In this document: positions 9,098 to 51,037 of the stretch, piece by piece | How the letters are laid out: the number at the start of each line of letters is the position of its first letter | How positions within the stretch are numbered: position 1 is the stretch's first letter | NCBI GenBank assembly: GCA_000002445.1 | Contig: CH464491.1 | Coordinates: forward strand, 992,001-1,056,000 | DNA length: 64,000 bases | Direction: 5' to 3' | DNA from: Trypanosoma brucei | Taxonomy: Eukaryota | Made by a program: the position numbers and the translations under genes | Notes under the pieces: model-generated | Seen by the model: the letters and a program-made list of their open reading frames with translations, nothing else | Database searches by the model: none | What the model was told of the DNA's origin: nothing

Positions 9098-9099
<2 letters not shown>

Positions 9100-9135: not shown

Positions 9136-9136
<1 letters not shown>

Positions 9137-9470: not shown

Positions 9471-9514
9471 TCCCTTCTGTTATCCTTTGTTTTTTTTTTT
9501 TACTTTTGTCATTC
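9471..9514 (+). promoter_or_regulatory. Polypyrimidine tract with downstream AG (9524-9525): probable trans-splice acceptor region for the 9530 CDS
   Basis: The tract tcccttctgttatcctttgttttttttttttacttttgtcattc is followed by an AG 5 nt upstream of the ATG at 9530. Confidence 0.45.
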
Positions 9515-9529
9515 GGCTATAAAAGATGC

Positions 9530-26037: not shown

Positions 26038-26747
26038 GTGACCTGTTGTCTTTTCGTTTCTTACTTCGTCGGGTTGGGTTGTGAAGAGGGCCACACAGAG
26101 ACTTAGAGTGCATTGGAACTCGTACAGCGTAGCCGCTATTGTCTATAACACCCCTCCCTCCTATTTGACCCAGTAATAGGGGAAGTTTTGTTTATGTATG
26201 TTGTGAGTGTGCGCTATGCATATGCATATATATATATATGGATAATACCCCTTTCCATGTATATTTCATTCCTCAAGTCCACTCCTCTCGCCCCTTTCCT
26301 CTGCATGTTTCGGTACTTAGGTTGTTGTGTTGTGTCTGTGCTCGGCGAAAGGCCTCGGTGCTGTAGGAATGGAGGGAAGATTATCTTTCACGTTGCTCCT
26401 CAGCCTGTGTTGAGAAGGGATCTCTCGCCTGGCGTAAACATGTCATCTACTCGGCGGAATAACATATGCTTTTGTGTGCCAAGGGCGAGACGCCAAATAA
26501 GAGTGGTAGGAGGGGATGAAGAGGATTCAAATATCATCATTTTGTGGTCGGTCTGCATGAAAGAAAGGTTTTGCGTGGGAAGCACGCTTTTGAATTACGC
26601 CACAGCCTGATCTGTCCACTGTTTTCGCCCATTATTTCTTTCCCATGGTTTCCCCTCCTTTGTATGTGTTCGTGTAGTTTACAATTTAGGTTACTTCTGT
26701 CAGAAGTTGAGGAGGTGTAGCCGTGGCCCCGGCTGTGTGTCGCGTGT

Positions 26748-29330: not shown

Positions 29331-30330
29331 TGAACGTTGTTCGTAGGAAAAATATCTGGTACCTGCTTGATCACACGAAGTTGATTTCTACCCTTTTCCT
29401 CCCCATGCACGTTCTGTGAGGTCTGGTTGAGGGGCCAGGAAGGGTGGGGGGGGGAGGGGTACGTCGAGTGGAAAAGAGGGGGCAAATTTGGTGTGAAAAA
29501 AAGCCAAACAATGACAACGCAACTCCAAACACAAAAGTTTCCCCACCCATTTGAGGAAACATGTGCGCTGTACACAACTTTTCGTCGCAGTTGCTTGACG
29601 GATTTCGCTTATTTTTATTCTTTTCTTTTTTCTTCTTCTAATCTGTCTCCTCATTTCGCTTGCTCTGTCATAACTCGTTGTTATTATTTTCCACGGTATA
29701 CGTGTTTATACCATACTTTGCGGCACTGTGTAGGCTTGTATGAACCCCCGTAGGTACGCAACTGTTTCACCGGCCCTCCTTCCTCTAGTGCCATAACATA
29801 TTCAAACCTTCCTGTCAGGGAAAACAAGGTGTACCAATAAAAAATAGGTTACGGGGTGCTGCACGCAGTTTTCTTAATTTGCTGTGGCGCTTAATGTGGG
29901 GGCCAACAACTGCTGGATGACTCCGTTGGCAACTGTGTCTTTCTTGATGTTGTTGTCGCCCCTGTGAAACGGAATGGAAAAGGTGGGAGATGTCTATGCG
30001 AGGCTGAACCCTCGGTGTTTGCTGTTCGTTTTTTTGAAAAAAAACAAGAGAGAGATGGAAAAGTTGAGTGTGGGTGAAAGAGGAAAGTGATCACCACTTT
30101 GGAAAGTGTTGCGAAATGTTTTTAATAGGGAAAAGAGAACCCCCTGATTTTTGACCTCTCGTGATCAGCGAATTACGATAAAGATGCCTTCTATCCCTTC
30201 ACACAATTTGTCCCCCAATTTTCTTCCATACGAAACACAAAATTGTATAACGTTGCGCGTATATAAATCGGGGGTAAAACAGCGCTTCCCACTGCACGGT
30301 GCAGGGTGCCAATAAATAGGCAGAGCACAT

Positions 30331-31056
30331 ATGAAGGGGAATAAAGGTGCGAACATCGCCTATCCCGACAAGTACCACAAAGTAACGGAATTTTTTGATC
30401 GTGAATATGGTGACCTAGAGACGTGCACGAAGCTCAACGACTGTCAAAAGCTACTTTTTTACGCACTCAGACAGCAGGTGGAGCACGGCCCGTGCACCAG
30501 TGGCGCTCCTTTTATATGGCAGGTTCGGGAGCGTGCCAAACACGATGCTTGGAAACAACTAGGCGCCATGACGAAGTTTGAGGCGATGGTTCATTTTGTT
30601 ACGCATCTTGAAGAGTGCATTGGCGGGAATGTGGACTGGGGAGAAAAGTTGAGAGACCTCAACGGCATGCGAGACCAGCAGCGCGTCGGGGTGGAAAATG
30701 GGACTGGTGAGTCAAATGCTAACGAACAAACGGAGCGGGGAGTGAGCGAGGCGCATTGGGACGCTGATGTGCAGGCCCACTTGCAGCCTAGCGCGGAGAA
30801 TATAGAATATTTGGCGCGGGAAGTAATGCGGCTGCGCGGCGAGCTCCAACAGGTGCGACCTAACCGGGTGGTGCCCACACCCATCGTCGTTCCGCCACGG
30901 AAACCCATTGATTACGTCAGCACAAAAAATATTGTTCCCCCAGCCCGTACACTTGCTACGGTGGCCACGCGGACGGCGTTGTTGAATGCGCAAACAACCA
31001 ACAATCTTGTGGAGAGGCAACCACAAGGTTGGGGTGAGTGGTTTGGGCTCATCTAA
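30331..31056 (+). CDS. Acyl-CoA-binding protein (ACBP) domain protein
   Basis: N-terminal LLFYALRQQVEHGPCTSGAPFIWQVRERAKHDAWKQLGAMTKFEAMVHFV matches the ACBP signature (LxFYxLYKQAxxGPC...KWDAW...EAM). Confidence 0.7.
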   Translation: MKGNKGANIAYPDKYHKVTEFFDREYGDLETCTKLNDCQKLLFYALRQQVEHGPCTSGAPFIWQVRERAKHDAWKQLGAMTKFEAMVHFVTHLEECIGGNVDWGEKLRDLNGMRDQQRVGVENGTGESNANEQTERGVSEAHWDADVQAHLQPSAENIEYLAREVMRLRGELQQVRPNRVVPTPIVVPPRKPIDYVSTKNIVPPARTLATVATRTALLNAQTTNNLVERQPQGWGEWFGLI

Positions 31057-31910
31057 AGGAGCTCTTCTCTTTTGCGGCCACAGCGAGATGCGCTGTGGTT
31101 GTGGCGCAGTCACTCGTGTAGTCCTCAGAGGGACGTATGCGGCCGCCGGTTGAGGCGATTACCCGCGTTGTTTGAGAAATTCTACTTGGCATGTGTTATT
31201 CGGAATGATGCATCTGGAAGTTGAAAACCATTGCTGGATGTTCCTCTCACTTTCATCTTCAATTGCAGCATGCAATCTGATCCTTGTTCGTTAACGCTGC
31301 AATAACGAGAAGAAATGCAAGTTTTTTTTTTGCTTGCTGTTACCTGCATTCACCCTACACCTTCTTGCACGTTGCTCGTGGCGTGTCTGTGGCGCATGTT
31401 TGTGCAAACATATATATATATGTGTATACCTCATGTGTTTCTCTTGGTCCCATCTCGCTCTTCACTTGAATCCCCTTCTCCCATTCGGTCTGCACACGCG
31501 GCGAAATACGCGCTCACCGAGATTATGGGTCTGCCGTTAGGGTTCATTGCAGGCGCTGTGCCGCTAGCGCCAGCGGTAGAAGAAAACCGAACGAAAGGAT
31601 TAAAGTGCTCACGTGCTCGTGAATGAATCTCACTGCAAACTGGAGGATGTGTGAAGAGGCATGCGCACATAAATTTCCCCCGCTAAAATATGCGTAGCAC
31701 GCATCGCGAAACGCGTGACGTTGCCGCAGGTTTCTTGTCGGAACTGACGGGAAAATGGAAGGGCAAATAACGGGTGTGGATCTCGCGGAGTTGTGTGTAG
31801 CACACCACCCTGTTGTTGTTTGTGCAAGGTGTGGCTGATTCGCGCATACTCCACGCGCGCATGTGAATGATTGTTATGTTCTCCCGCTTTCCACATGTGT
31901 ATCCTATTGA

Positions 31911-32588
31911 ATGCAAATTTCTCCCCCTTTCTGTGGTTGCCTCTCTGAAATGTATGCGCGGTCGCTTGTCAAGCAAGGGGCCTTCAGTTGCTTCCGGTCT
32001 TGTGTACGGGTGGGGTCGGTGGCCATTATCGGCGGGGAGGCTCACATGTTCAAACAACTCTACAAACGTGACGAGAAGTTGCGCCTGTACAGGTCACTCA
32101 TCAAAGGGGCGAGCCGATTCCCGCTGCGTTCCCGCAGGGATATTGTAACGGAAGAAGTACGTAGCAGCTTTCGTCACCCACTAAACGATAGCCTTACAAA
32201 TGAGGAAGTCGACCGCAAGCTCGTGCTGGGGTGGGAACGGGCCGAGGCAATTAAGACATATGCGCAAAACATGTACTGGTTTCACTCGCGTGATGAGGTG
32301 TCGAAGGAAATGATGCATCACTCGTTGGAGCGGGACCGCCAACGAGTACGGGAGATGGAAAGATGCAACACTGTTGGAGCGGCACCACGGAAAACACCTG
32401 AGGTGACTGAGTTCAAGTCGTCGATGTACAACGTACATCCGGACTACTATGAAAAGATTGGGCAGAAACCACTGACGCACACAAGGGACATTTGGAGGGC
32501 TCGAGGGCAGTATGGCTCCGATGTTGGTGGTCCGCGACAGAAATTTTTTGTGCGGCGTTTCAAGGCCCTGTTTCCCCAGGGTTGGTGA
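31911..32588 (+). CDS. LYR-motif (Complex1_LYR-like) protein; start possibly at Met 32046
   Basis: KLRLYRSLIKGASRFPLRSRRDIVTEEVRSSFR fits the L-Y-R...F motif of the LYRM family. Confidence 0.45.
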   Translation: MQISPPFCGCLSEMYARSLVKQGAFSCFRSCVRVGSVAIIGGEAHMFKQLYKRDEKLRLYRSLIKGASRFPLRSRRDIVTEEVRSSFRHPLNDSLTNEEVDRKLVLGWERAEAIKTYAQNMYWFHSRDEVSKEMMHHSLERDRQRVREMERCNTVGAAPRKTPEVTEFKSSMYNVHPDYYEKIGQKPLTHTRDIWRARGQYGSDVGGPRQKFFVRRFKALFPQGW

Positions 32589-34547: not shown

Positions 34548-35420
34548 ATGTCGACAAAGCCAAAACCTTTAGTCATTTTGGTTGTGGGAATGGCAGGCAC
34601 CGGCAAGACAACGCTAGTGCACAGGCTGCAACACTACGCCGAGGAGAAAGGTAAAAAGACGTATTTCATAAATTTGGATCCGGCAGTTGCGGATGTTCCT
34701 TACGGCGCCAACATCGACATTCGTGACACAGTCAACTACAAGGAAGTTATAAAACAGTATCGACTGGGACCCAACGGTGCTATCATGACATCGTTGAACC
34801 TGTTTGCAACGAAGTTTCACCAAGTCATTGGTATTCTTGAAAAAAAGGAAGGTCTTGAGTGGATCGTTGTGGATACGCCTGGTCAAATCGAAGTTTTCAC
34901 TTGGTCAGCATCGGGGCAAATAATCGCCGAGTCCCTGGCGGCCACGTGGCCAACAACACTTTTGTTTGTCGCTGATACAGCCCGCTGCGCAAGTACACAG
35001 ACATTCATGAGCACCATGCTATATGCGAGCAGCATCATGCTGAAGCAGCAGCTCCCGCTCGTCCTTCTCTTTAATAAAACGGATGTCGTTTCTTCAGATG
35101 CCGCAGTGACTTGGATGAAGGACCCGAATGCGTTGGCGGAAGCGGTTAACAGCGGTACGGATGGGAGTTACGCAGGGAGTTTAGTCCAATCCCTCTCCCT
35201 TTTCACGCACGGCTTCTACGAAAGCATTCCTTTTGCCAGCGCATCTGCTGCGTCAGGAAAGGGCATAGAGGAATTGGAGGAGGCCCTCGTAGTTGCGAAA
35301 GAACAGTATTTAAGGGACCGCGCGCCGCGAGTCGGCGAAAGAGAAAAGTTGGCGAATGAGGACGCGATTGCCGCGGAAGATATGATTCGCGCGTACCGCG
35401 AGGACCGGAAGAAGGATTAA
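34548..35420 (+). CDS. GPN-loop GTPase (XAB1/GPN1-like ATP/GTP-binding protein)
   Basis: Walker A VVGMAGTGKTT, the GPN-loop YRLGPNGAIMTSLNLF, and VDTPGQIEVF plus NKTD G-motifs. Confidence 0.85.
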   Translation: MSTKPKPLVILVVGMAGTGKTTLVHRLQHYAEEKGKKTYFINLDPAVADVPYGANIDIRDTVNYKEVIKQYRLGPNGAIMTSLNLFATKFHQVIGILEKKEGLEWIVVDTPGQIEVFTWSASGQIIAESLAATWPTTLLFVADTARCASTQTFMSTMLYASSIMLKQQLPLVLLFNKTDVVSSDAAVTWMKDPNALAEAVNSGTDGSYAGSLVQSLSLFTHGFYESIPFASASAASGKGIEELEEALVVAKEQYLRDRAPRVGEREKLANEDAIAAEDMIRAYREDRKKD

Positions 35421-38400
35421 ACTACCCAGCTGCTAAGTCAATGCATGTGAAGTGGGGTATCGTTTAAGGTGTTTTCATACCACATCCCTCCCTTGAGTCT
35501 GTAAAGCTTATGTTCATTTTTTTTTTTAACTCGTTTCACTGCACAATTTTCCTGCGGCACAAGGCACGCCGCCTTTTCTCTTCTTTTTTTTTTCGTTTTG
35601 TCATAGTGCCGTCTCTCTGCAGTGGGAATGAAACATTACGAAGCCCAAAAAAGGTGGGAGCTGGTGACGGGCCTTCACGTCAAAGGCAAAGTGTGTTATT
35701 TCACTGAAGGTATAGAAAATCAAGGAATCGGGGAAAAGCAACCGCTTTTTATGGGAATTGGTTGGCGGGGTCCATTCGAGGTCACCTCAACTGCGGGGCA
35801 ATGCCGGGCGGCTGAAAGAGGACCGGTACATTAAATGGCGCTAGGCTTCGCGTCATGTTGGTCGAGTCTAGGGTCTCGCTATCGAATTCCAACACACCAC
35901 CACAACCCCACTAGGAACCAAACGCAGAAATGATGATTATTATTATTATTAAAAGTTCTTGACAAACATTTGGTCGAGAAAAAAAAAACGAACAACATTT
36001 AAACGTGTAATGCTGTCGAAGTCCCGAGTACGGTCACTACAGGTGAAAGGCGAGTTGCCTGTGATTCACATTGCACTAGCGGTCTCCACACACACACGAA
36101 CACGCAGAAAAAAAAATAGAACGCTGCGCCGCCATGGGCAGAAGCCGGTGTTGTTGTAAGTTTTCTGTAAGCATGCATAATGATAGGGCGTGTGGACATT
36201 TGTATATTCCTTTTTTTCCCCCACGCTTTTGCTGCACAGATAGCGCTGTGGTGGCACAGCTCATTCAAATGGCTTTCAGGAAGGTTAGGTTGGCCACGGT
36301 ACCGTTTCCCCCCTCCAATTTCGCCACCTGTGACATTTAAGCGCGCGGATGGGGGGCTGTCAGTGCTCTTACCGTAAGTAACTGCGGGTCCTCCTCCCCT
36401 CCCTGGCCGTGTGCTCATCTTGGGTGCCTCATCAGCCCTGCTTTTCCGACAATGCGGCACCTGAGTGCATGGCGCTGGTGCATCATCCAACCATCCTTTT
36501 CCACTTCGTTCCTTTCCGCTTGGGGGCTTTGCAATGGCCGCGTTAGCTCCAAGATGAAGTTTCCTGGCGTGCTGCCATAGTCCCGTCTGTGCTCAGCAGG
36601 GCTTTCCACATTAATTCGACATCATATGTTTTTACCGAAAGGCCACTCAGGGGCGTTGCCGTTGCTTCCTCATGTTGTTCTCTTTGCTTCTTTCCTTCTA
36701 CTGTCTCCTCCGCCCTCCCTAAGACCTATTGAGCTGGTCGGTGAATAACCACGCCGCGGCAGCACTCGATCACTGCGGACTCGGTGCTATTTAAAGTGAC
36801 TGATTTTGTAAACTTCCTGCCACACCCCCCTCGATGCGCCCTGAGCCTACCCTTTTCACCCGTGGGGTCGAGCACACTGTTATCCCGTGTCAGGAATATG
36901 GCAACCGTGCTCCATTCGCGGCTCTTCTTCGCAATCGCCACTCTGTAGGTTTCCCTTCAGTCTCTCCCGTGTTGGCGACACCTCATTTATCAGGAGGAGT
37001 TTCCAATCCGCCTGAACTGTTAGTCGTGCTATGAGTCACCGTTTTCAATTTTTCCGCAAGCCCCTTTTCGGGACTCCGGTGCTCATGTCAAATCACTTCC
37101 CTTTCTTTACATAACACGCGGCCGACGGGGCTGTGGCGTCATCGTGTGTCGCTCCGCTTTGCGCCCGGTGTCAAGGAAATGCAGCCGCAGCTGAGGATTC
37201 CGGACGACACAGGAATGCCTTGCAACCCTTCCCTGAGGTGCCATGGGCTTGTGGTCGTATGTTGTTTTGAGAGATCGCCTGCTTTCGCTCGGCCAATTTT
37301 CCAGCTTCATTCCGCACCACTGATACGACCGCCTTGCAAATGGTCATCTTGGTGGTGTTAAACAGCTTCCGGACTTCGTTCTGCCTTTTCCCGCTCACCG
37401 AACCTCGGGAGCGCCCGTGCGCCACATTGAATTACACAAGCCCGAGTACTGACGGGCGGATGCGGCACTGTCCGTGACAGTCATGTTTACAAGGAGGTTT
37501 TGGGCGCCTTTTTGCCCTGTGCCAGCACTGGTGCCCGCACGCGCTTTTCGGCCACATCGTTTGCTGCTGAGTTTCATCCTGACGATAAAAAATGTTTCGG
37601 GGCATATGACCGTGCCTCGGATTCTGGCAGTGCTCCTATTCCGGGGCGGCCGCATTGTGGTTAGTTCGTTGGGAATTATGACGGGCCGGCTGCTCACCAC
37701 TTCTTCCCCTCGACCGCCTCACCGTGTGCACCGGTTTCGGCGCTTATTAGGGGCGATCGCTCTTCGGTATCGCCCAAAATGTTTCGTGGTGCGGGCACGG
37801 AATGATTCAGAGATAGTTTTTCCTGCCCTGCTGAACTTCCCCTTCTTCGGTGCAGGCTTATAGTTACCGCGGTTGCCTCTGCGCGTGCTTGGCCCTAATC
37901 CGGCTTCGAATGTAGCGTGTGCCTCTTTGTGCTTCTGCTTTATGTCTCCCACCAAAATATCAACTTTTATATGTTAGGTGTGTTTTTGTGCAGTTGTTTC
38001 TTCCACTGCAATCTCATCTGCTATTGCACTGTCTTTCCAAACAACGTGGTGGGAGAAATAAGCCGCATAGAAATCACCGCATTCTTTTTACTGATTGTGA
38101 AAATCACCCTTCCATACGCGGCTCGGGATTTCATCCTCCACGCGACTGTCTTTCATTGTTTCCAGTACCGTATTTAGCACCTTTTCAATTGGCACTGCTT
38201 CTGCACGATGGTTGCATGCCCATATTCAGGTGTCCCTTTAATTCTGTATTTTTCCGTGTTGCCGAAGATTATCATTTCTGCAGTGGACTAACTGCCTAAA
38301 CTCACCAGTTCATCTGTTGAAACTTTTCAGTCCTTGTTGTATATCCCTATTTTTTGCGGCGTATGAGCCCTCCTCCATCCGTCTGTTGCGTTTGCTTTTA

Positions 38401-40218
38401 TACCCACCCATGGAGGGCAATTTTGTGCACACTCTGGGACCAGCGTCCAAGGAGCTTTAAGTGTGGAGTACACCTTGATTTTTGGTGTCGGAGCACCATC
38501 CCTCCACTGAATTCAGCCATTCAAGTATTGGATTGTTTCGCGGACATCACCGGCTTACTATGCTTGAAAAGCGCCCTCTTTTAGCGTTTGACATGGGGCG
38601 GTATTCCGTCGTCCTCTTGTTTGCCGGTTTTCAAACAAATATCAGTCGTGCTTTTTTGAGCATGTCTTGTTTGTTCGAGTCCGAGGAAACCACAGCAATG
38701 ATTTGAACTGATTCAGCTTGCGCGCTTTCCGTCTTCCTCCCTTTCAGGTAGAGACATGAGAATCGCCTAAGAGCGACGCCGTAGTTTATCTTTTAGTGGA
38801 CGATTCCGTAGTGGAAGGCTGTAAACGCTTTCTTCCGTGGAGCACCGTTCAGCTAACACTACGGCATTGAGCCTCTCTAAACTTGTTCTTTCTGATTTTG
38901 TCGTTTGGTGAGCATGCTTTTCAATCCTTCTTTCAATGGGTGCAGTGTGGCCCGCGGGCTTTTGGGTCTTTGCATCGTTGGCCATTTTTCCTCGTCAACA
39001 TGAGGCCTTGTGGGTTCCAGATGCCTAATCCAAGTGCTGTGTGCCCCGTCTTTTCCTCCAGCGCTTGCGTATAGCATCTTAGCGGCTGTCGCGCAAACAC
39101 TCTTTCTCCGCTGCGGCGCACCTCCCAGTTTGTTTTCGTCCGAATCCGTCGCTTTGAGGATCGGATTCCTGGTAAATAAACTATCGTTGGGTCCTGGGGT
39201 CTTATTCAGTTCCGTGCTCAACGTTTCCATCGCTCTAAGAAATAGGATGCAGCCTAACGCCGACACCCGAAGAAACCCACGCGTCAATCCCGCGTTCGTC
39301 GAACTCTATAGTCGTTGTCATGATCTTTCTTGTTCAGTGAGGCGGGGAGTTGCTTATCCACCATGTTGGATGTGATATCTACTTTGAACCACCCCATCAC
39401 TCGAGCAACGTAGCTGCGACCCCACTCAATTAAGCCCCATCAAAGAGTTTATAAACACTGCTGCAATTAAGGAACTGTTTTCCTTCGATCCGATAGCACT
39501 CAGAAATTCTAAAACAGAATTAGCGCTGCATATTCATCGTTGGAAACCTGACTATTGTAGCTGAAGCGGCTCTCAGAGGCAGTTTTTTTTTCACTCTACC
39601 AAGTGCCACTCTTCGGATGACACCGACCGCGGTGCCGTCTGGCGCCAGCGGTTGGGATGATTCAACGCCTTTAGCTGATTTGTTCTGCTTAAAGAATGGT
39701 ACTATGGTCCCTCTTGGCTGCTCAGGGAATTTGTTCAACCTTTGGAAGCGGCTGTTAAACTAAGGTAAGAACCACCTTTAACGCTCCCCGGTATGAATTC
39801 CGTTGCATCCAGTCGCCGTCCACACTATATAATTTCCCCGTTACTTTCGATTCGCCACGAAGACGCCATGAATACACAACTGCGCGACTTTAAGGGCATT
39901 AGTGGAACGATTCGTATACTTGTCTGCCAAAGCCCGCAGCCGCCGCCCTTTCGTCGGTGGGTGACTGGTCATTACACTGGAATGGGGGCGGATGGCGGTC
40001 ACAACGCAAATACTGATTTTAGCAGCGCTCAGGTGTTCTTCAGGGTGGATTGTTTCGAGGCGTCCTGCCTCCCTGTCCCTAGAGCTGTTTCGGTTAGCGG
40101 ACTCTTTCTTATTTCGGTGAAGATAGTTCTCTTGGTCGACTTCCTATACTGGTTCATTCTGCTTTCAGGGGTTATCAGTTCTGCTGCTCTATCGAAGGTC
40201 GTTCGGCAGCGGTTGCCG

Positions 40219-40230
40219 TTAGAGTTTCCC
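40219..40230 (+). repeat. Left 12-bp target-site duplication (TTAGAGTTTCCC) of RIME insertion
   Basis: Identical 12-mer recurs at 40736-40747, immediately after the element poly(A). Confidence 0.8.
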
Positions 40231-40735
40231 CCTGGCGATGCCGGCCACCTCAACGTGGTGCCAGGGTCCAGTACCCCGTATCATCGGGGGAAGCCAAGAG
40301 CCAGCAGCGTTCCTTTCATGGGGAACACTGCTGTGCTCCGGCTACGGCATCATACAGCACAGGGATCAACAGCGTCTTGCTGGGACACTGTTTTTCATTT
40401 GTCGGTCCCTGGGCACGTGCCAGCGTGCCATCAGCAGTATCATCCGCGCTAAGATGCTGCTGTCCGGTGATGTGGAACTCCAAAAAAAAGAATTGCCAAT
40501 TGGCATCTTTTGGAGAGTCCGGAGTGGGGGGCTTCTCGCTCCATCTGCTGTATTCCGTTCATGTGCGGAAATACAACAAAAAATTATAGAGGGTGTGTCA
40601 GGATGAATGAAAAAGGGAGACTCTGCCACAGTCGCCAGACCGATAGCATCTCAGGGCTCTACGGTGATGGCTGATGGCCGCGCCAGTGGGGGGAAACTCT
40701 CATGAAGGCACGAAGAAAATTTCAAAAAAAAAAAA
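40231..40735 (+). mobile_element. RIME-type non-autonomous non-LTR retroposon (ingi/RIME family), complete copy with poly(A) tail
   Basis: The 5' end CCTGGCGATGCCGGCCACCTCAACGTGGTGCCAGGGTCCAGTACCCCGTATCATCGGGGGAAGCCAAGAGCCAGCAGC matches the conserved ~79-nt signature of trypanosomatid ingi/RIME/L1Tc elements, recalled from memory. Total length is ~505 bp, ending in A12 at 40724-40735. It is flanked by perfect 12-bp direct repeats. Confidence 0.78.
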
Positions 40736-40747
40736 TTAGAGTTTCCC
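40736..40747 (+). repeat. Right 12-bp target-site duplication (TTAGAGTTTCCC)
   Basis: Direct repeat of 40219-40230 abutting the poly(A). Confidence 0.8.
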
Positions 40748-43700
40748 GACTCTTTCAAATTTACCTCATCGCAATGCTTAAGACATGCGTCCTCTGTGGG
40801 AAGATATTTTAATCTAGCTACTCTTTGCCAGACCGGGGTTTCTTCATTAGCAATTGCTAAGACCAGTTCCATTTGCCAATCCACTATGAGCTCACCGCCC
40901 CTCTGAAGCACAGGACTCTCAGCGGCACGGCGATGGGCCCGTTTCCACTTCGGTGCCTGGTGGGTTTTGATTCCCGCTCGGTTGCTCCTGCTTCTCACTG
41001 ATTACGTTAAGACTCTTGGGGGAAACGCACGGAGGTCACAGCGAGACGTCGGTTGTTTGAAAACACCGGCGCAACGATTGCGCTTTCTAAAAGTCCTGTT
41101 GTCTGCGGACTCCTGAAAACAGTTAATCTATCTCGAGGGAGTGCTGAAAATCCTCCGCCTTCTGTTTTGGGGCGGGCCGCCCCAGTGCGTTGGTAGTGAA
41201 TGAGACTGTGTGCCGTACCCTCCCCAGCTTTCATGGACGCCTCCTGCGCCGGATCGGAACCCGCCGCGCCCACGTGGGCCGCTGTCGGCAAGGGCGGCTG
41301 TTCTCCATCTAACGGTGCTTTCGCGTTCCATTGACTTCGCCGGAGGATGGGGTATTGTGGTTCATGGGAATCCCAGCCACGAAGGGAAGGGGGCTCGAGA
41401 AACAGGGAGCGGCGGAGCTGTGTGTTTGCAGTTCCGGGGGCGGTTGCTTAAAGGGTGGGTCTTTCCTCCACGTTATCCCTTTCCAAAAAGCCGCTGCCTG
41501 GCCGCCGCGGAGGTTACCGGTTCAGGGTCAGCGAGAGGTTGGCTTTTGGCTTCGTTTTCACTAGCCGGCTGCCGGTGCCAGTTCATCGGATGGGTTGCAG
41601 TATCACGTGAAAGGACGTTCTCTCGCGTGCGGGAAATCGTTGTGCGAAAAGGTCGGGGGAATGAACCTTGCCAGTGGTATGCCCTCTACCGCTGCCGTCC
41701 TTGTGGTCTTGCAATGCTTTGACCTGTGGGCACGGTTGTTTTCGTTTGGTTATTGATGACATATGCCCACTTTCATCAATCCGCTTCGAGGTGTGTATGG
41801 TTCGCGCGTGGAACGGCTTTGGCTTCTACATTTTTTTAAAAAGTTTGACACTGTCTTCTCAAGTTACTTGGATTTCGTATTTGGGAAAGACGCTGGTGAT
41901 ATATTGTGGTTGTTGTTATACTGGTTGGAGATCTAATGCTCAAAGTAACTATTAATTATTACAACTCGATAAAAAAAAATGTCCCGAGGGTGCTAAAGGA
42001 TATGTATAAATGATGAAGCTTTCAAACGATTTCCCTCTGACTTTGTTCGGCCGGTTGTTCAGGCGTTTTGTAAGATTTTCATTGTTGCGAACAACTATGC
42101 TTGCTTTCCTATTGGTCTATGAGATGTGAAGCTATGGGGATACCTTTGCTTGGGATTAATAAAAAAGACTACTATTCCGTCGCAAGATTCTATTTTTTTC
42201 CCCCCTCTCTTTTGCGTGTATTTTAGCCCGGTAGGTTGTTTTTCTGGTGGTCATATATGATTTTATCTCATGGTGGTGTCGCAACCGATTTTGCTTAAAT
42301 CATATGGTTCATATTTCTTAGTGAAATATTTCTTTTGTTTAATACAGGAATACAGGCCAGTCCGTGGCATGTAGCGCATGCACTGATGAGGTCGCCGTTG
42401 TTCCGCCTCCGTGATATTGTGGAGGTAAGAGTTTCCCAAAATGTCTTCGAACCCTCAATGTAGTTAATGAATATTTGGGAACGGTGCGTTGTTGCTCCTT
42501 AGGGTGGATAAGGGCCACCTGGCGAATGCTTAGCGGTTTATCTTAAGGGCCTGAGGTTGGGGATGGGGACACACATCTAATTTGTAAGTGTTTTACACAC
42601 TTTTCTGATTTTGCTTTTGAGGGAAAATTGTTTGCGTCCCTCAGTGGGCAAAAAGGCGCTTAAACTCATTAGGCCACCATATTTTAAATATTGTGATCAA
42701 TGATGTTAAATATAGGTAAACTACTGTGCCCTCGCTTGACTCAAGGAGTTCAACCAACGATGATTCCACTGCCAATGACAAATGCATGTTCGAAACAAGA
42801 GGGGATGCGGTCGTTTTTCCGCGGGCGGCGTGCAAAAAAAAAAAAAAGGACGGCGAAGTGCAGTAACAACAAAACACTTTATAAAAATAATGCCACTCTC
42901 AGCGACACGTGCTGCTAATAGAGATGGTGCTACCCCTTGGATAATTATCCGTTAGCATGGCCACTGTGCCCACTTGTTGTCATGACTCTGTTGGGCTGTC
43001 ATCTTAACTGTTTGCCTTACCGATAGGTGCCCGTGAGGCATATCCGTAACAAGCAGTTGCTTATTCCTTTTCGTCTGGGTTACTTTCCAACAAACAAAAT
43101 TTGGTTGTACAATGCGCATCGTGAGGCTTCAGCAGAGGAACGACATCATTTCCTATTGAGGATTGTATGCTTGTACATAAAATATGTGAGTGCGTTTGAT
43201 TTTTTTTAACCTTTAAGGACAAATTAGTAGCATCCGTAGCAAAGGAGTGAATGTACAAGTGTCGGTGTGAATATAATTTCTCGTTATTCACATCGCTTTT
43301 TTGGGATGACTAAACCGCTGCGTGTATTGGCGTATCGGGTTATGCTGATATAGTTTTGATGTAATGCGGTCTAGTTTGTTGGACACATGTTATTGTGTTG
43401 GACTCGAATTTGGTGGTTTACTGTTTCGGTTCTTTGAATATTTTCATTGTGGTCCGTACAAAAGTTTTGGTCAGTTATATGTGGAGGGTTGTTTAAAAAT
43501 ATTTTCTCTTCGTTACTTTTTTGTTTTATTTACAACTGCTATAATCCTATTTCCCCATTTTACCTCTTGATAGAGGTATTTTCAAAGCAATTATTAACGG
43601 CGAATACACGACATCACCATCGATTGTTGACGGGCGAGTGTTTACACTTGGGGTATACTACTAAGTGAGGCCGAGTTTGATTATTTCCCCATGTGCTGTG

Positions 43701-45042
43701 ACGTTTCTATTGTGTTAGTTTTTACACTGGTCATATACTTAAATATTATACATTATATATATATACATATATTAAATTTTGAACCTGCGTCGCATCTTCT
43801 TCAGGAAAAAATTTTCTTACTCCCAATTCTGATAGTTATTTGCATTAATCGACCAGGCGTTTGTTGTGGAGACTGTTCTTTGGTCCTTGTTAATGGATCT
43901 GTGGTCAGGTGTGCGCGTGCATGCTATCTAAAATTTGATGTTTGCATGAATCTTGGGGGTCATATATTGACGAAGATAAAGATTCTGTTCATGGAATTGA
44001 GGTACGTAATTTTTGTGCTTTTCCGATCCGGTTATTACCAAATGACAGAAACACTGTTGTATTGCCACTTCGCGTAGGGGCGTTCAATTTCTAAATTTAT
44101 ATGTTTTTGTATCTGGTCCCGTGCCTAGCCAAAATTATCCGACGCTTCCGCTGATAATGATGTTGACCATTTCCTGTGTGGAATGGAAAGTATTCTCTTA
44201 ATGCTCAGCCGTCCTAGGGCCCCACCGTACTTTTCTAAAAAAAAGAAATGATGGTGACGAGGTGTTGTAGGTTGCGTATGAGGCGAATCGGTTGAGTGCA
44301 AAGACCTGTTGTCACTTGAGGAAGACGGTTTTATGCGTGGCTTTCCTTTAAACTGTTGGGAGGTTTGAGGCAGTCGATGCGATACAGAGCCTTCTGGGTG
44401 CTTGTTTGTTGTGAATATATTTTTTAATTTGTGTTGGATTGACACGATGGGTCGCCACGGTGCCAAGTGATGTTCCTTCTACTTTTGTGTTAGGAAAATA
44501 TCCTCTGTTAACTACATGTCTACCGTTGACTTTATTAATGGTGTGATGCCTAGCGTCGTCCTAATTGTTCTCTGTGGGTGATGGTTGGAAGAGGGTAAAT
44601 ATGTACGCATAGTTTCGTCGTTGAATTTGTTTTCCACTGTACGTGACAACAAGTGTACTGTTTTCTCTGATGCAAGGTGAGCAAACTCGGCTGTGCTTTT
44701 TATATGTTTTAGCTTCTTCAACATATACATATATTTAAGGTAAGTACACCTGGAAGAACGTACAATACTTTGCGTATTTTCTTTTTTAATGACTATTCCG
44801 ATCTTGACATACAACTTGTTTGTCTTTACTTGCTACGTTGTTGCGGCGGAACCATCGGGAATGTGGCATATTCTTTTTTACACCCTTTGTTTAGCTAAAA
44901 GTGTTGTGTCGTTATCCTATGTCTTGTTCTTTTGCCTTCTCTACCTGTTCACGCAGTTTATTAGACGGAAAGGAAAGAGAAGGATCACACATATTTGTTG
45001 GGCACCGCAAGAATAGGAGCATACGCTGAAGAGAAAAGTAAG

Positions 45043-47658
45043 ATGTCCACGATCGAACGGGATACTCTCCCAAGCGATCCAACACCGCACCACTACAAAG
45101 TCAGTATTGTTCCTGACTTCGAAACGTTCAAGTTCACCGGTCATGTTGACATAAAGATAACCGCCGAAAAACCTCAACAGAAAATCACTCTCAACTATAG
45201 TGATTTAACGTTTGTGAAAGTAAGGGTTACGCCAGGGGGGAGTGCATCGGAAACAGAGGAACTTCCCGCGGAATCCATAAGCCTCGACAAAACCGGGATG
45301 AAGGCAACGTTTTCTTTGCACAAGGCATTTCAAGGAGAGGCAACACTCTCGATTGATTACACGGGAATCATAAATGACAAACTGGCAGGATTTTACAGGA
45401 GCAAATACACTGTTAACGGAAAGGAGTCGTATATGGGGACAACACAGTTTGAAGCTGTTGACGCACGCCAGGCAATCCCCTGCTGGGATGAGCCTGCAGT
45501 GAAAGCTGTGTTTGAAATAATTATAACTGCTCCTTCGCACCTAATGGTGCTATCCAACACTCCATCTTACAAGAAGGAGGTGGTTGATGATAAGACACGT
45601 TGGTTCTTTGAGCCCACGCCCAAAATGTCGACTTATCTTCTCGCGTGGACGATAGGTGTGTTCGAGTGTATTGAGAGGCGCATCCAGAAGGTACACAAAG
45701 GAGCAGGTGGTCAAACTGAAGAGACCATTATACGCGTGTTTACTCCTGAAGGTAAAAAGTCAAAAGCTTCTTTTGCTCTGGATGTGGCTTCTAAAGTGTT
45801 GCCATTGTATGAAGAGTTCTTCGGATCAAATTACGTGCTTCCAAAAGTTGACCTTTTGGCAATTCCTGACTTTGCCGCCGGGGCAATGGAAAATTGGGGG
45901 CTTATAACATATCGTGAAACAGCCCTACTATGTGATGCCGAATCAAGTGCGGCTCAGAGGTACTATGTCGCTCTAGTGGTTGCCCATGAACTGGCCCACC
46001 AGTGGTTTGGAAACCTCGTGACCATGCAATGGTGGAAGGAGCTCTGGCTTAACGAATCGTTTGCCACGTACATGGAGTACCGGGCGGTGGATAAGTTGTT
46101 CCCAGAGTGGCGTGTCTTCACGCAGTTCGTCCACGATGAGGTTGCTCGAGCCTTTCAACTGGATTCGATGCGTAGTTCCCATCCCGTTGAAGTGGATGTC
46201 AAATACGCTAAGGAGATCGACGACATTTTTGATGCCATTAGTTACAGCAAGGGTGGGAGCATCATTCGCATGGCAGTTAATTTCATCGGAGAGGAGGCAT
46301 TCCAAAAGGGAATGTCGGAGTATTTGAAGCACTTCGCCTATGGTAATGCAACAACGAAGGATCTGTGGAATTTTCTTGGAAATGCTGCAGGCAAACCCTT
46401 GGCCCCTATACTGGAGTACTGGACGGGGCGGCAAGGTTATCCTTACCTTATTGTTACGTCGTCACCTGACAAAAAGACTTTGAACATAACTCAAAAGCGC
46501 TTTCTAGCTACAGGTGACGTCACCGCCGACGAGGATGAAACAGTGTGGAAGGTACCTTTGCTTATCTCGACTCCGGAAGACGGGGTTCAGCGTTATATTC
46601 TTGAGAAACGGGAAAACCCAATACCGGTAAAGTATAACTCGTGGATAAAGGTAAACAGTGAGCAATCGGCCTTCTGCCGTGTCCACTATCAAGGCAACGG
46701 TTTGCTCGAAGGTTTGCTTCCCGCCATTGCTTCGAAGAACCTCTCTGATATAGACCGATTTTCTATTATTTCCGACTACCACGCCTTTGCTCGTGCCGGT
46801 TACTGCAGCACCGTCGACGTGCTCAAGATTCTTTCTTCTTATGTTGACGAAGACGATTATACTGTGTGGTGCTCCGTCGTTGGCTTTGAGAAAGAGATAC
46901 GGATGCTGGTGTCCAGCCAGGGTCGAAGTGCTGTTGATTCACTGAATGCTTTCTGTCGCAACTTGTACTCGAATGCCATGAAACGACTCGGCTACGCGCA
47001 GAAGCCTGGCGACGATAATCGTTTGACTCAACTGCGCAGCGTTCTCTTCGACAGACTCGTAACATCTGAGGATAAGGAGGCCGTTGCCTATGCTTGCAAG
47101 CTTTATGCGGAACGGCAAAAGGTGCCAATTCCTTCGGACTTGCGGTACACTGTGTACGCTACGCACGTTAAATTAAACGGCGAGCCCGCGTTTCAGGAGG
47201 TGAAGCAACTTGCTGAGGTTACTGTGGACGCGATGGAGCGGACTCATTACCTTCGTGCGCTTGCATCTTCCGAAGTTGATGGTGTGGTGAGTCAGCTCTT
47301 TCAATACTCTCTCTCCGAAAAAGTTCGGAGCCAGGACGTTTTGGCCATTCTTGGCGCACTGGCCAGCAACGCTGCGAGGGTTAAAGCATACGCCGAAGAA
47401 CTGAAGCAGATGTGGCCAAGGTTGGGGAAGGAGCTTCCCGGACTTATACTCGGGAGGGCGCTAAAATATTTGGAAAATGGTGCTGATGCAGCGGTGGCCG
47501 ATGAAATGGAACAGTTCTGGAGCCACCTTGCTGATGAAGCTAAATTCGGGATGACCCGCAGCTTCCAACAGGGTGTGGAGGGACTCCGCAACAACGCAAA
47601 ATGGGCGGCGCGAGACGTGAAGACTGTGGTCGAGTTTCTTTCGGTTGCAGCGTTATAG
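45043..47658 (+). CDS. M1-family metallo-aminopeptidase (puromycin-sensitive aminopeptidase-like); ORF 44995..47658, likely start Met 45043
   Basis: GAMEN exopeptidase motif AAGAMENWGLITYRE and zinc-binding HELAHQWFGNLVTMQWWKELWLNESFATY (HEXXH-18-E). Full ~870-aa M1 architecture. Confidence 0.9.
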   Translation: MSTIERDTLPSDPTPHHYKVSIVPDFETFKFTGHVDIKITAEKPQQKITLNYSDLTFVKVRVTPGGSASETEELPAESISLDKTGMKATFSLHKAFQGEATLSIDYTGIINDKLAGFYRSKYTVNGKESYMGTTQFEAVDARQAIPCWDEPAVKAVFEIIITAPSHLMVLSNTPSYKKEVVDDKTRWFFEPTPKMSTYLLAWTIGVFECIERRIQKVHKGAGGQTEETIIRVFTPEGKKSKASFALDVASKVLPLYEEFFGSNYVLPKVDLLAIPDFAAGAMENWGLITYRETALLCDAESSAAQRYYVALVVAHELAHQWFGNLVTMQWWKELWLNESFATYMEYRAVDKLFPEWRVFTQFVHDEVARAFQLDSMRSSHPVEVDVKYAKEIDDIFDAISYSKGGSIIRMAVNFIGEEAFQKGMSEYLKHFAYGNATTKDLWNFLGNAAGKPLAPILEYWTGRQGYPYLIVTSSPDKKTLNITQKRFLATGDVTADEDETVWKVPLLISTPEDGVQRYILEKRENPIPVKYNSWIKVNSEQSAFCRVHYQGNGLLEGLLPAIASKNLSDIDRFSIISDYHAFARAGYCSTVDVLKILSSYVDEDDYTVWCSVVGFEKEIRMLVSSQGRSAVDSLNAFCRNLYSNAMKRLGYAQKPGDDNRLTQLRSVLFDRLVTSEDKEAVAYACKLYAERQKVPIPSDLRYTVYATHVKLNGEPAFQEVKQLAEVTVDAMERTHYLRALASSEVDGVVSQLFQYSLSEKVRSQDVLAILGALASNAARVKAYAEELKQMWPRLGKELPGLILGRALKYLENGADAAVADEMEQFWSHLADEAKFGMTRSFQQGVEGLRNNAKWAARDVKTVVEFLSVAAL

Positions 47659-49967: not shown

Positions 49968-50789
49968 ATGGCCAAGAAGCACCTAAAGCGCCTGTATGCC
50001 CCCAAGGACTGGATGCTGAGCAAACTCACTGGTGTGTTTGCCCCTCGTCCACGTGCTGGTCCCCACAAACTACGCGAGTGCCTTTCGCTTCTGATTATTA
50101 TTCGCAACCGGCTGAAGTATGCACTAAATGCCCTCGAAGCGCAGATGATCCTTCGTCAGGGACTCGTGTGTGTAGACGGCAAGCCCCGCAAGGATGGTAA
50201 GTACCCAGCCGGTTTCATGGACGTGGTGGAGATTCCCAAGACGGGCGACCGCTTCCGCATCCTATATGACGTGAAAGGACGCTTTGCGCTTGTCCGCGTG
50301 AGCGAGGCTGAGTCGAGCATCAAGATGATGAAGGTTGTCAACGTATACACCGGCACGGGACGCATTCCTGTTGCTGTGACACACGACGGCCACCGGATTC
50401 GCTATCCCGACCCCCGTACGAGCCGTGGAGACACTTTGGTGTATGACGTGAAAGAAAAAAAGGTTTTGGACCTAATCAAGATTGGCAACGGCAAGGTTGT
50501 GATGGTGACAGGTGGTGCCAACCGTGGTCGTATTGGAGAAATTGTGTCCATTGAACGTCACCCTGGCGCCTTCGACATCGCCCGCCTCAAGGATGCGTCT
50601 GGTCACGAATTCGCAACTCGTGCCACAAACATTTTTGTGATTGGCAAGGACATGTCGAGTGTTCCAGTTACGTTACCTAAGCAACAGGGTTTGCGTATCA
50701 ACGTGATTCAGGAGCGTGAGGAAAAACTCATAGCCGCCGAAACACGCAGAACAACTCAGGCGCACAGCAAGCGAAAGACTAAGGTGTAA
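49968..50789 (+). CDS. RPS4: 40S ribosomal protein S4, copy 1
   Basis: 273 aa, MAKKHLKRLYAPKDWMLSKLTGVFAPRPRAGPHKLRE... is a canonical eukaryotic RPS4 N-terminus, with KOW-like and S4 domains. Confidence 0.95.
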   Translation: MAKKHLKRLYAPKDWMLSKLTGVFAPRPRAGPHKLRECLSLLIIIRNRLKYALNALEAQMILRQGLVCVDGKPRKDGKYPAGFMDVVEIPKTGDRFRILYDVKGRFALVRVSEAESSIKMMKVVNVYTGTGRIPVAVTHDGHRIRYPDPRTSRGDTLVYDVKEKKVLDLIKIGNGKVVMVTGGANRGRIGEIVSIERHPGAFDIARLKDASGHEFATRATNIFVIGKDMSSVPVTLPKQQGLRINVIQEREEKLIAAETRRTTQAHSKRKTKV

Positions 50790-51037
50790 GTTGGTCTCTT
50801 TCTGCTGACTTTTTTTTTTACGAAGAAGCAAGGATTTTGGTTCCATTCATACTAATTTATTTTACGTTTTATAATCTATTGATTTATGTTGATCGAGACC
50901 CGTCACTATCACTAACATCAGCAAGGCAAGTGTGCACACTTGCAGTTCCCCCTTGTCGATAGTGTATAAAAGATACGCATTTCCTCCCCCGAAAACAATG
51001 TCTTCCGTTTAAAAAGTGGTTTGTTTAGCCGTCCCCA

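What the first reader, a model, noticed from the sequence alone, without database searches (positions are those of the whole stretch)
35421..44994. 9.5-kb stretch without any convincing ORF inside an otherwise gene-dense polycistron
Between the GPN-GTPase gene (ends 35420) and the M1 aminopeptidase gene (starts 45043) the longest ORF is 219 aa, and that one spans the RIME junction. Everywhere else in the window genes are 0.3-1 kb apart, with one further 3.7-kb gene-free interval at 5832-9529. Composition is heterogeneous. A moderately GC-rich block with scattered short ORFs on both strands (36.4-41.7 kb, including very GC-rich 41.2-41.7 kb) carries the RIME. It is followed by AT-rich, homopolymer-rich sequence (41.8-44.9 kb) containing an A14 tract at 42835-42848. 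This could be a decayed gene or DIRE-type degenerate retroelement, a long non-coding transcript, or an unusually long UTR. A retroposon landing here is consistent with reduced constraint.
Basis: seen in the sequence. Interest (0 to 1): 0.6.

Follow-up and report, generated by a model that had tools for sequence, protein, structure and literature searches.

The report
Fossil retroposon filling a lost-gene slot
The 9.6-kb gene-free stretch in this Trypanosoma brucei chromosome 11 segment is mostly a dead, heavily mutated ingi-type retroposon lying backwards in the transcription unit, with a young RIME element inserted into it, at a position where related parasites carry a nuclease gene; it is ordinary genomic debris of a well-known kind.

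Summary
Between the GPN-loop GTPase gene (ends 35420) and the M1 aminopeptidase gene (ATG 45043) there are 9,622 bases with no credible ORF. Other gene spacings in the window are 0.25-3.6 kb.

About half of the gap is a degenerate ingi/L1Tc-clade retroposon (DIRE-like) on the minus strand. Endonuclease, reverse-transcriptase and RNase H/C-terminal similarity runs collinearly from 41363 down to 37599. The best match scores 99.8 bits (E 7e-25), against at most 29 bits in reversed or shuffled controls. That alignment contains 19 in-frame stops and the catalytic motif is destroyed.

A 505-bp RIME (40231-40735, + strand, A12 tail, perfect 12-bp target-site duplication) sits inside the DIRE.

The flanks (35421-36200 and 41830-45042) have the composition of ordinary intergenic/UTR sequence.

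Leishmania major, T. cruzi, T. rangeli and T. melophagium carry a DNA/RNA non-specific endonuclease-like gene in this slot. T. brucei and T. vivax do not. T. vivax instead has a 13-kb gap with its own minus-strand ingi-like pseudogene.

This kind of element is already catalogued in T. brucei. Interest is low.

The parts
34548..35420 (+). GPN-loop GTPase gene (upstream flank)
   Evidence: Pfam ATP_bind_1 E 9e-67. Orthologues in all trypanosomatids searched.
35421..36200 (+). GPN 3' flank: ordinary UTR/intergenic-type sequence. Contains a 23-nt polypyrimidine tract at 35572-35594 with the next AG at 35605.
   Evidence: GC 0.46 with skews in the range of other intergenic regions. Polypyrimidine tract listed. 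Its use as a trans-splice acceptor is inference.
36201..37598 (-). Presumed 3' (C-terminal plus 3' UTR) portion of the degenerate retroposon. No detectable similarity remains.
   Evidence: Same GC-rich, C>G and T>A composition as the core. Extrapolating the HMM coordinates places the end of the ORF near 36711. No poly(A) tail or TSD was recognised. The boundary is uncertain by about 0.5 kb.
37599..38819 (-). DIRE core: RNase H and C-terminal region remnant
   Evidence: tblastn P0241 aa 808-1198 = 38819-37728, 79 bits, E 5e-18. P0255 and P0243 extend to 37599. HMM positions 837-886 and 1139-1218.
39138..40017 (-). DIRE core: reverse-transcriptase remnant. The FADD catalytic motif is replaced and there are many in-frame stops.
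   Evidence: P0259 aa 10-652 = 39587-37728, 99.8 bits, E 7e-25, 19 in-frame stops. P0241 aa 397-701 = 40002-39138. HMM positions 415-738.
40219..40230 (+). RIME target-site duplication, left copy (TTAGAGTTTCCC)
   Evidence: Exact 12-mer found twice.
40231..40735 (+). RIME (505 bp, A12 tail), inserted in the opposite orientation inside the DIRE
   Evidence: Its first 80 nt are 80% identical to the 5' hallmark of the T. vivax ingi-like element. Its 5' half encodes an ingi-like N-terminus (P0298 aa 10-109, E 6e-5). A12 run at 40724-40735 and perfect TSD. An internal piece recurs at the end of the T. equiperdum contig.
40736..40747 (+). RIME target-site duplication, right copy
40748..41363 (-). 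DIRE core: AP-endonuclease-domain remnant
   Evidence: P0267 aa 64-176 = 41351-41010 (E 1.4e-6). P0301 and P0284 hits at 41246-41010 and 40896-40681. HMM positions 60-175 = 41363-41013, E 1.6e-6.
41364..41830 (-). Presumed 5' end of the DIRE (very GC-rich), bounded by a sharp GC drop. A T5A7 run lies at 41831-41842.
   Evidence: 100-nt GC is 0.57-0.62 up to 41.7 kb, then 0.33-0.43. The HMM extrapolates the ORF start to about 41540. The 76-79-nt Pr77 hallmark was NOT detectable here. On the minus strand the T5A7 run fits the published ingi6 target motif TTTTxxxxxA^A (PMC3820030), but it is low-complexity, so this is only a weak lead.
41831..45042 (+). AT-rich spacer upstream of the M1 gene (includes A14 at 42834-42847). 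Ordinary intergenic/UTR-type sequence, and possibly the fully decayed site of the lost nuclease gene.
   Evidence: GC 0.40, GC skew +0.13, AT skew -0.18, within the range of the window's other intergenic regions. No RT, EndoNS, Pfam, Rfam or tRNA signal. No TSD for the A14 run.
45043..47658 (+). M1 aminopeptidase gene (downstream flank)
   Evidence: Pfam. Identical to the TREU927 protein P0121.

Best explanation
The interval is non-coding because roughly half of it (about 36.2/36.7 to 41.5/41.8 kb) is a fossil non-LTR retroposon of the ingi/L1Tc clade. This is a DIRE-type element of about 4.3-5 kb, oriented against the polycistronic transcription unit. It has decayed so far that only family-specific protein profiles still recognise it.

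A much younger RIME later retrotransposed into its endonuclease/RT junction in the sense orientation. The remaining 0.8 kb and 3.2 kb flanks are ordinary T. brucei UTR/intergenic-type DNA.

The slot between the GPN GTPase and M1 aminopeptidase genes ancestrally held a DNA/RNA non-specific endonuclease-like gene. That gene is absent from the slot in T. brucei and T. vivax.

Inferred, not shown: RNA polymerase II reads through the whole interval as part of the polycistron. The GPN and M1 mRNAs are cut out by polyadenylation and trans-splicing at the edges, and the retroposon-derived RNA is discarded, possibly feeding the retroposon siRNA pool. The element itself has no function.
For: (1) Retroposon similarity. 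68 ingi-like proteins from T. vivax and T. congolense hit the window only inside the interval, and (apart from the RIME's own 5' half on the + strand) only on the minus strand. The hits are collinear: endonuclease at 41351-41010, RT at 40014-39138, RNase H/C-terminus at 38819-37599. The best is 99.8 bits, E 7e-25. The reversed sequence and five local shuffles give at most 29.3 bits.

(2) Profile map. A 1,557-position profile HMM of the family gives six collinear minus-strand hits (positions 60-175, 415-463, 529-574, 668-738, 837-886, 1139-1218).

(3) Degeneracy. There are 19 in-frame stops in one 620-codon alignment, and the FADD motif is lost. Pfam sees nothing in any of the six frames. An 84-aa fragment finds only one marginal hit among 1.84 billion proteins.

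(4) Composition. The 36.2-41.8 kb block is the only non-genic stretch in the window with GC 0.52 and C>G. That fits inverted former coding sequence.

(5) RIME. It is 505 bp long with an A12 tail and a perfect 12-bp TSD. Its 5' 80 nt match the clade hallmark.

(6) Synteny. The order is GPN -> Endonuclease_NS gene (-> M1) in T. melophagium, T. rangeli and L. major, and Endonuclease_NS -> M1 in T. cruzi. The four nuclease proteins are mutually homologous. T. vivax has a 13,023-nt gap with a near full-length minus-strand ingi-like pseudogene (HMM positions 3-1557) and no nuclease gene.

(7) Assembly. An independent T. equiperdum assembly is collinear through 39.4 kb, so the stretch is not an assembly artefact.

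(8) Literature. It defines DIREs as about 5-kb degenerate vestigial ingi/L1Tc-related retroposons present in all trypanosomatid genomes, and states that they are already annotated in T. brucei (PMC3820030, PMC2323293, PMC4035085).
Against: The 76-79-nt 5' hallmark (Pr77) that DIREs typically share was not detectable at the predicted 5' end, by local alignment or by a two-sequence nhmmer profile. No poly(A) tail or TSD of the old element was found. Its ends therefore rest on composition and HMM extrapolation only.

About 1.4 kb (36.2-37.6 kb) assigned to the element has no detectable similarity.

Nothing here shows how the interval is transcribed or processed. Whether T. brucei keeps a copy of the nuclease gene elsewhere could not be tested. 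Amino-acid identity to active elements is only 23-29%.
Confidence: 0.85

Rival explanations
1. The interval is essentially one very long 3' UTR of the GPN gene, or one or more functional long non-coding RNAs, and the retroposon remnants are incidental passengers.
For: Trypanosome polycistrons are transcribed throughout. There are several strong polypyrimidine tracts followed by AG inside the interval (35572, 36207, 36389, 38732, 42193) that could act as trans-splice/polyadenylation signals. From my own knowledge, T. brucei has catalogued lncRNAs.
Against: There is no detectable sequence conservation with the T. vivax gap apart from retroposon parts. There are no Rfam matches. The block diverges about 20 times faster than ordinary intergenic DNA between TREU927 and T. 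equiperdum. The first polypyrimidine tract lies only 150 nt after the GPN stop codon, which argues for a short GPN 3' UTR (inference).
Confidence: 0.08
2. The GC-rich block is the decayed pseudogene of the host DNA/RNA non-specific endonuclease-like gene that occupies this slot in other trypanosomatids.
For: That gene lies between GPN and M1 (or directly after GPN) in T. melophagium, T. rangeli, T. cruzi and L. major. The non-retroposon residue of the T. brucei gap (about 4-4.8 kb) is similar in size to the ancestral segment of 2.9-3.4 kb.
Against: tblastn and 3- and 4-sequence profile HMMs of the nuclease find nothing in any frame of the interval (best E 0.33 on a 37-aa fragment). The GC-rich block instead matches retroposon proteins on the opposite strand. 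An undetectable relic in the AT-rich flank cannot be excluded.
Confidence: 0.04
3. The gap is an internal boundary of the polycistronic unit: Pol II termination followed by a new start site with a GT-rich promoter.
For: Internal start regions in T. brucei are multi-kb gene-free stretches (from my own knowledge). 41.3-44.8 kb is G>C and T>A on the coding strand.
Against: The same skews occur in ordinary short intergenic regions of the window (GC skew up to +0.23, AT skew down to -0.26). There is no tRNA gene. Gene orientation does not change. The length is accounted for by retroposon insertions.
Confidence: 0.04
4. The element is a recent, merely truncated copy of the active T. brucei ingi rather than an ancient DIRE.
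For: A RIME, which is made of ingi ends, is present in the block.
Against: Outside the RIME there is no nucleotide similarity to the ingi 5' end carried by the RIME. Amino-acid identity to ingi-clade proteins is only 23-29%, with 19 stops in 620 codons. The RIME has its own perfect TSD and the opposite orientation, so it is a separate, later insertion.
Confidence: 0.02

Closest known systems
[quoted passage not shown]
   Same: It is long: about 4.3-5 kb after removing the RIME. It keeps collinear vestiges of the AP-endonuclease, RT and RNase H/C-terminal regions of ingi-clade proteins. It is riddled with stops, cannot be autonomous, and shows no nucleotide similarity to the active ingi ends tested. 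It lies in the chromosome core of T. brucei (definition in PMC3820030, PMC2323293).
   Different: The clade's 76-79-nt 5' hallmark, a poly(A) tail and a TSD were not detectable, so the element may be 5'-eroded. Its subclade (ingi1-6) was not determined.
RIME (non-autonomous partner of ingi in T. brucei)
   Same: It is 505 bp with an A-rich tail and a 12-bp TSD. Its first ~80 nt carry the clade hallmark, and its 5' half encodes an ingi-like N-terminus.
   Different: Nothing unusual, except that its landing site is inside an older retroposon in the opposite orientation. The published ingi4 target motif was compared by eye only and fitted poorly.
Tvingi-type pseudogene at the syntenic T. vivax locus
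   Same: It occupies the same slot (GPN to M1), has the same minus orientation and belongs to the same protein family. The nuclease gene is likewise absent there.
   Different: The T. vivax copy is nearly full length (HMM positions 3-1557). It still has its 5' hallmark, and its fragments are 53-93% identical to other T. vivax copies. It is therefore much younger and probably an independent insertion.
Retroelement-associated synteny differences among trypanosomatid genomes (comparative genomics of the three reference trypanosomatid genomes; from my own knowledge)
   Same: A lineage-specific gene-content difference coincides with retroposon debris.
   Different: Here gene order on both sides is kept between T. 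brucei, T. vivax and the stercorarian species. Only one gene is missing.

Membership tests
[quoted passage not shown] | Protein-level relatedness to the ingi/L1Tc ORF, with domains in the native order | tested here: met
   Collinear minus-strand hits for endonuclease, RT and RNase H/C-terminus. Best 99.8 bits against at most 29.3 bits in controls. Six collinear HMM hits.
[quoted passage not shown] | Degenerate: many stops or frameshifts, no coding capacity | tested here: met
   19 in-frame stops in the 39587-37728 alignment and FADD motif lost. Longest minus-strand stop-free stretch within the matched core (37599-41363) is 146 aa. Pfam finds nothing.
[quoted passage not shown] | Long element of about 5 kb | tested here: met
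   Detectable core 37599-41363. The extrapolated ORF is 36711-41540 and the GC-rich block is 36.2-41.8 kb. After removing the 517 bp of RIME plus TSD this gives 4.3-5.1 kb. The ends are approximate.
[quoted passage not shown] | 76-79-nt 5' hallmark (Pr77) shared by the clade | tested here: not met
   No match above noise to the RIME or T. vivax hallmark anywhere outside the RIME (local alignment; nhmmer best E 8.5). It may be eroded or 5'-truncated. I therefore file the element as 'DIRE-like / ingi-clade fossil' rather than as a complete DIRE.
[quoted passage not shown] | Poly(dA) tail and target-site duplication | tested here: inconclusive
   No convincing T-run or TSD at the predicted 3' end (36.2-36.7 kb). 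Only a T7 run at about 36212-36218, within the polypyrimidine tract 36207-36222. Chance matches are expected for short degenerate TSDs.
RIME | About 500 bp, made of ingi 5' and 3' ends, with the hallmark at the 5' end | tested here: met
   505 bp. The 5' 80 nt are 80% identical to the T. vivax ingi-like 5' end. The 5' half matches an ingi-like N-terminus. Identity of the 3' half to the ingi 3' end was not tested, because no ingi sequence was available.
RIME | Poly(A) tail and flanking TSD | tested here: met
   A12 at 40724-40735. TTAGAGTTTCCC at 40219-40230 and 40736-40747.
Host DNA/RNA non-specific endonuclease-like gene (Pfam Endonuclease_NS) as a pseudogene | Residual similarity to the orthologues that occupy this slot in other trypanosomatids | tested here: not met
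   tblastn E >= 1.8 with no hit in the interval. Profile HMM best E 0.33.
Structured RNA gene (snoRNA cluster, tRNA, other Rfam family) | Match to a covariance model or tRNA model | tested here: not met
   Rfam at gathering thresholds gives 0 hits in the window. At the E-value threshold there are only two chance-level hits. ARAGORN gives 0.

The most novel reading that the evidence does not exclude
The GPN-M1 slot is a recurrent retroposon landing site in salivarian trypanosomes. T. brucei has an ancient DIRE followed by a RIME, T. vivax has an independent Tvingi, and T. equiperdum may have a further ingi/RIME. On this reading the first insertion, near where the start of the nuclease gene lies in T. 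rangeli and T. melophagium, caused the lineage-specific loss of a DNA/RNA non-specific endonuclease-like gene that is conserved from Leishmania to T. cruzi.
Probability: 0.25. Interest if true: 0.35.

Novelty: already known. Interest (0 to 1): 0.15.

Why it matters
It matters little. DIRE and RIME elements are well-described residents of the T. brucei genome, and the literature states that all copies in the reference genome were catalogued. The window's aminopeptidase is identical to the TREU927 protein.

The practical value is twofold. The 'mystery' gap is explained without invoking a new gene, RNA or regulatory region. It also shows that generic domain scans (Pfam on six frames) can miss a retroposon this decayed, while family-targeted searches recover it.

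The one modestly interesting by-product is that a nuclease-like gene conserved at this position from Leishmania to stercorarian trypanosomes is missing from the slot in T. brucei and T. vivax, where retroposons sit instead.

Tried and rejected
- **Pfam on all six X-masked frames of the interval:** no hit at E <= 1. This was a false negative for the retroposon.
- **Rfam (gathering and E-value modes) and ARAGORN:** nothing.
- **Tandem repeats:** only trivial short arrays.
- **Bacterial promoter/terminator scan:** irrelevant to a trypanosome.
- **tblastn of the T. melophagium nuclease, the T. vivax 347-aa ORF and short T. vivax RT fragments:** only one weak RT hit (E 0.011). That hit was the lead that prompted the family search.
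- **Nuclease profile HMMs against six-frame fragments of the T. brucei and T. vivax gaps:** nothing.
- **Search for the 79-nt hallmark at the DIRE 5' end:** negative.
- **TSD search for the A14 run:** none found, so there is no evidence that it is a retroposon tail.
- **GT-rich promoter idea:** dropped, because the skews equal those of ordinary intergenic regions.
- **phmmer of an 84-aa DIRE fragment against 1.84 billion representatives:** one unnamed 169-aa hit, E 4e-4, uninformative.
- **Look-up of the TREU927 locus by the aminopeptidase protein:** not on record.
- **Literature search by guessed gene identifiers, and for the nuclease paralogue:** nothing useful.
- **Low-threshold tblastn:** produced only noise outside 37.6-41.4 kb.
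- **T. congolense synteny:** could not be examined, because no contig is on record for its orthologues.

Full report
**1. The observation**

The window is a T. brucei-group chromosome 11 segment. All long ORFs lie on the + strand. They include a GPN-loop GTPase (34548-35420), an M1 aminopeptidase (45043-47658), thiamine pyrophosphokinase, two RPS4 copies and three nucleoside-transporter copies. The aminopeptidase and GTPase products are identical to database proteins from T. b. brucei TREU927 and from T. equiperdum/T. brucei.

The distance from the GTPase stop to the aminopeptidase ATG is 9,622 nt. The other 19 spacings between long ORFs are 248-3,578 nt.

The longest ATG ORF inside the gap is 219 aa (39793-40452) and it runs into the RIME. 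Shuffled versions of the interval give a mean longest ORF of 133 aa and a maximum of 278 aa. None of the five longest ORFs exists as a protein in a 15-billion-sequence collection.

The compositional description is correct. The block at 36.2-41.8 kb has GC 0.52, and 41.8-45.0 kb has GC 0.40.

An independent T. equiperdum assembly is collinear with the window up to about 39.4 kb. The stretch is therefore real and not an assembly artefact.

**2. First passes that found nothing**

- Pfam on all six frames of the interval, with stops masked as X, gave no family at E <= 1.
- Rfam and tRNA scans gave nothing.
- Tandem repeats are trivial.

**3. Synteny gave the lead**

I looked up contigs that encode orthologues of the two flanking genes.

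- T. melophagium: GPN -> Endonuclease_NS-domain gene (400 aa) -> M1, with 3.4 kb in total.
- T. rangeli: the same order, within 2.9 kb.
- T. cruzi: the nuclease gene lies 0.8 kb upstream of M1.
- L. major: an 859-aa Endonuclease_NS protein follows GPN.

The four nuclease proteins are mutually homologous. Their sources name them 'DNA/RNA non-specific endonuclease(-like) protein'. The ancestral slot therefore held a gene.

In T. vivax the GPN-to-M1 gap is 13,023 nt. It contains one annotated 347-aa ORF that is unrelated to the nuclease and looks like a chance ORF. It also contains a run of minus-strand ORF fragments, one of which hits RVT_1. A second T. vivax assembly breaks on both sides of that element, as expected for a repeat.

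**4. The retroposon**

A weak tblastn hit of the T. vivax RT fragment to window 39587-39429 (E 0.011), together with weak collinear tblastx hits, suggested a similar element in T. brucei.

I used the concatenated T. vivax fragments to collect 68 ingi-like proteins from T. vivax, T. congolense and T. equiperdum. In tblastn these proteins hit the 64-kb window only inside the interval. Apart from the RIME's own 5' half on the + strand, they hit only the minus strand. The hits are collinear:

| Domain | Window coordinates |
|---|---|
| Endonuclease | 41351-41010 and 40896-40681 |
| Reverse transcriptase | 40014-39138 |
| RNase H / C-terminal region | 38819-37599 |

The best single alignment is P0259 aa 10-652 against 39587-37728. 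It has 23% identity, 99.8 bits and E 7e-25. It contains 19 in-frame stop codons, and the FADD catalytic motif is replaced. The reversed interval and five locally shuffled versions give at most 29.3 bits.

A 1,557-position profile HMM of the family gives six collinear minus-strand hits in T. brucei. For comparison, it covers the T. vivax element almost end to end, from position 3 to 1557. Extrapolating the HMM coordinates places the former ORF at about 36711-41540. That agrees with the compositional block at 36.2-41.8 kb. After removing the RIME and its duplication, the element is 4.3-5.1 kb long.

This block is the only non-genic stretch in the window with high GC and C>G on the + strand. That fits former coding sequence read backwards.

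The features match the published description of DIREs: about 5-kb degenerate vestigial ingi/L1Tc-related retroposons found in all trypanosomatid genomes (PMC3820030, PMC2323293, PMC4035085).

Two typical features could not be found. The first is the 76-79-nt 5' hallmark. The second is a poly(A) tail with a target-site duplication. I therefore call the element DIRE-like, probably eroded at its ends.

A T5A7 run at 41831-41842 fits, on the minus strand, the published ingi6 target motif TTTTxxxxxA^A (PMC3820030). It is low-complexity sequence, so this is only a weak lead.

**5. The RIME**

The 12-mer TTAGAGTTTCCC occurs at 40219-40230 and again at 40736-40747. The two copies bracket a 505-bp element that ends in A12.

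- Its first 80 nt are 80% identical to the 5' end of the T. vivax element, which is the clade hallmark.
- Its 5' half encodes an ingi-like N-terminus.

It lies on the + strand inside the minus-strand fossil, between the endonuclease and RT remnants. Its intact duplication marks it as a much later event.

**6. The flanks**

The two flanks are 35421-36200 and 41831-45042. Their GC content (0.46 and 0.40) and strand skews fall within the range of the window's ordinary intergenic regions. For that reason I dropped an early idea that the G>C, T>A bias marks a GT-rich internal promoter.

A 23-nt polypyrimidine tract starts 150 nt after the GPN stop. A pyrimidine-rich run ending in AG lies about 90 nt upstream of the aminopeptidase ATG (read). 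These suggest short UTRs for both genes, but that is inference.

No trace of the nuclease gene remains in any frame of the T. brucei or T. vivax gaps. The non-retroposon residue of the T. brucei gap (about 4-4.8 kb) is similar in size to the ancestral segment. The fossil's 3' end lies 0.8-1.3 kb after the GPN stop. That is about where the nuclease start codon lies in T. rangeli (+1.1 kb) and T. melophagium (+1.0 kb).

Disruption of the nuclease gene by the insertion, followed by decay in place, is therefore possible. It is not shown. I also could not test whether T. brucei keeps the gene elsewhere.

**7. How it most likely works**

It does nothing. By the established rules of trypanosome gene expression, the polycistron is transcribed through the interval. 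The flanking mRNAs are excised by coupled polyadenylation and trans-splicing, and the rest is degraded. All of this is inference, because no transcript or chromatin data were available.

**8. Verdict**

DIRE and RIME copies in the T. brucei reference genome are stated to be already identified and annotated (PMC2323293). This is a known kind of feature in a reference genome, and interest is low.

The most novel reading still open is that this slot is a recurrent retroposon landing site and that its first insertion removed a conserved nuclease-like gene in salivarian trypanosomes.

Noticed in passing
window 35421-39450 versus L001 (T. equiperdum OVI contig CZPT02001221.1): Substitutions per kb between the two genomes are 0.4 in coding sequence, 1.7 in ordinary intergenic DNA, 16.7 in 35421-36200 and 35.7 in the retroposon block. 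The peak is at 38000-39450. The T. equiperdum contig then ends in 67 nt that match the RIME interior (40437-40370) in reverse. Possible causes are contig-end mis-assembly, a divergent haplotype, gene conversion between DIRE copies, or an extra ingi/RIME insertion. Unresolved.
   Followed up: partly
L002 14929-19547 (= L005 1042-5660), T. vivax: A nearly full-length (HMM positions 3-1557) but frameshifted ingi-like retroposon lies on the minus strand in the same GPN-M1 slot, with its 5' hallmark intact. The T. vivax gap is 13,023 nt, and a second T. vivax assembly breaks on both sides of the element.
   Followed up: yes
L002 13121-14164, T. vivax: The annotated 347-aa 'hypothetical protein ERJ75_000994100' has no homologue among the slot's nuclease genes and has the composition of translated GC-rich non-coding DNA. 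It is probably a spurious gene call.
   Followed up: partly
L004 11856-13058, L009 4697-5926, L007 7805-9187, L008 13586-16165: A DNA/RNA non-specific endonuclease-like gene (Pfam Endonuclease_NS) is conserved immediately downstream of the GPN GTPase gene, or upstream of M1, in T. melophagium, T. rangeli, T. cruzi and L. major. It is missing from that slot in T. brucei and T. vivax. Whether salivarian trypanosomes keep a copy elsewhere was not testable here.
   Followed up: partly
window 5832-9409: A second long gene-free interval (3,578 nt, GC 0.38, G>C). It has no similarity to ingi-like proteins and no Rfam or tRNA hit. Not examined further.
   Followed up: partly
window 22984-32588 versus L004 1-8355 and L008 1-3968: Upstream synteny also differs. 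T. brucei and T. vivax have Dpy-30/ADK, FKBP-domain and ACBP genes before the LYR-motif gene. T. melophagium has four DUF5075 genes there and L. major has at least one.
   Followed up: no
window 35572-35605: A 23-nt polypyrimidine tract followed by AG lies only about 150-185 nt after the GPN stop codon. If it is used as a trans-splice acceptor, it would give the GPN mRNA a very short 3' UTR and start a non-coding transcript running antisense into the retroposon. It could also be the orphaned acceptor of the lost nuclease gene (speculation).
   Followed up: no
window 41831-41842: A T5A7 run on the minus strand lies exactly at the GC-content break. It fits the published ingi6 endonuclease target motif TTTTxxxxxA^A, reported upstream of one subgroup of eight T. 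brucei DIREs (PMC3820030). It is low-complexity and may be coincidence.
   Followed up: partly
L007 16226-22404 (T. cruzi) versus window 49968-51859: The RPS4 gene is present as at least six tandem copies in the T. cruzi contig, against two in T. brucei and T. vivax.
   Followed up: no
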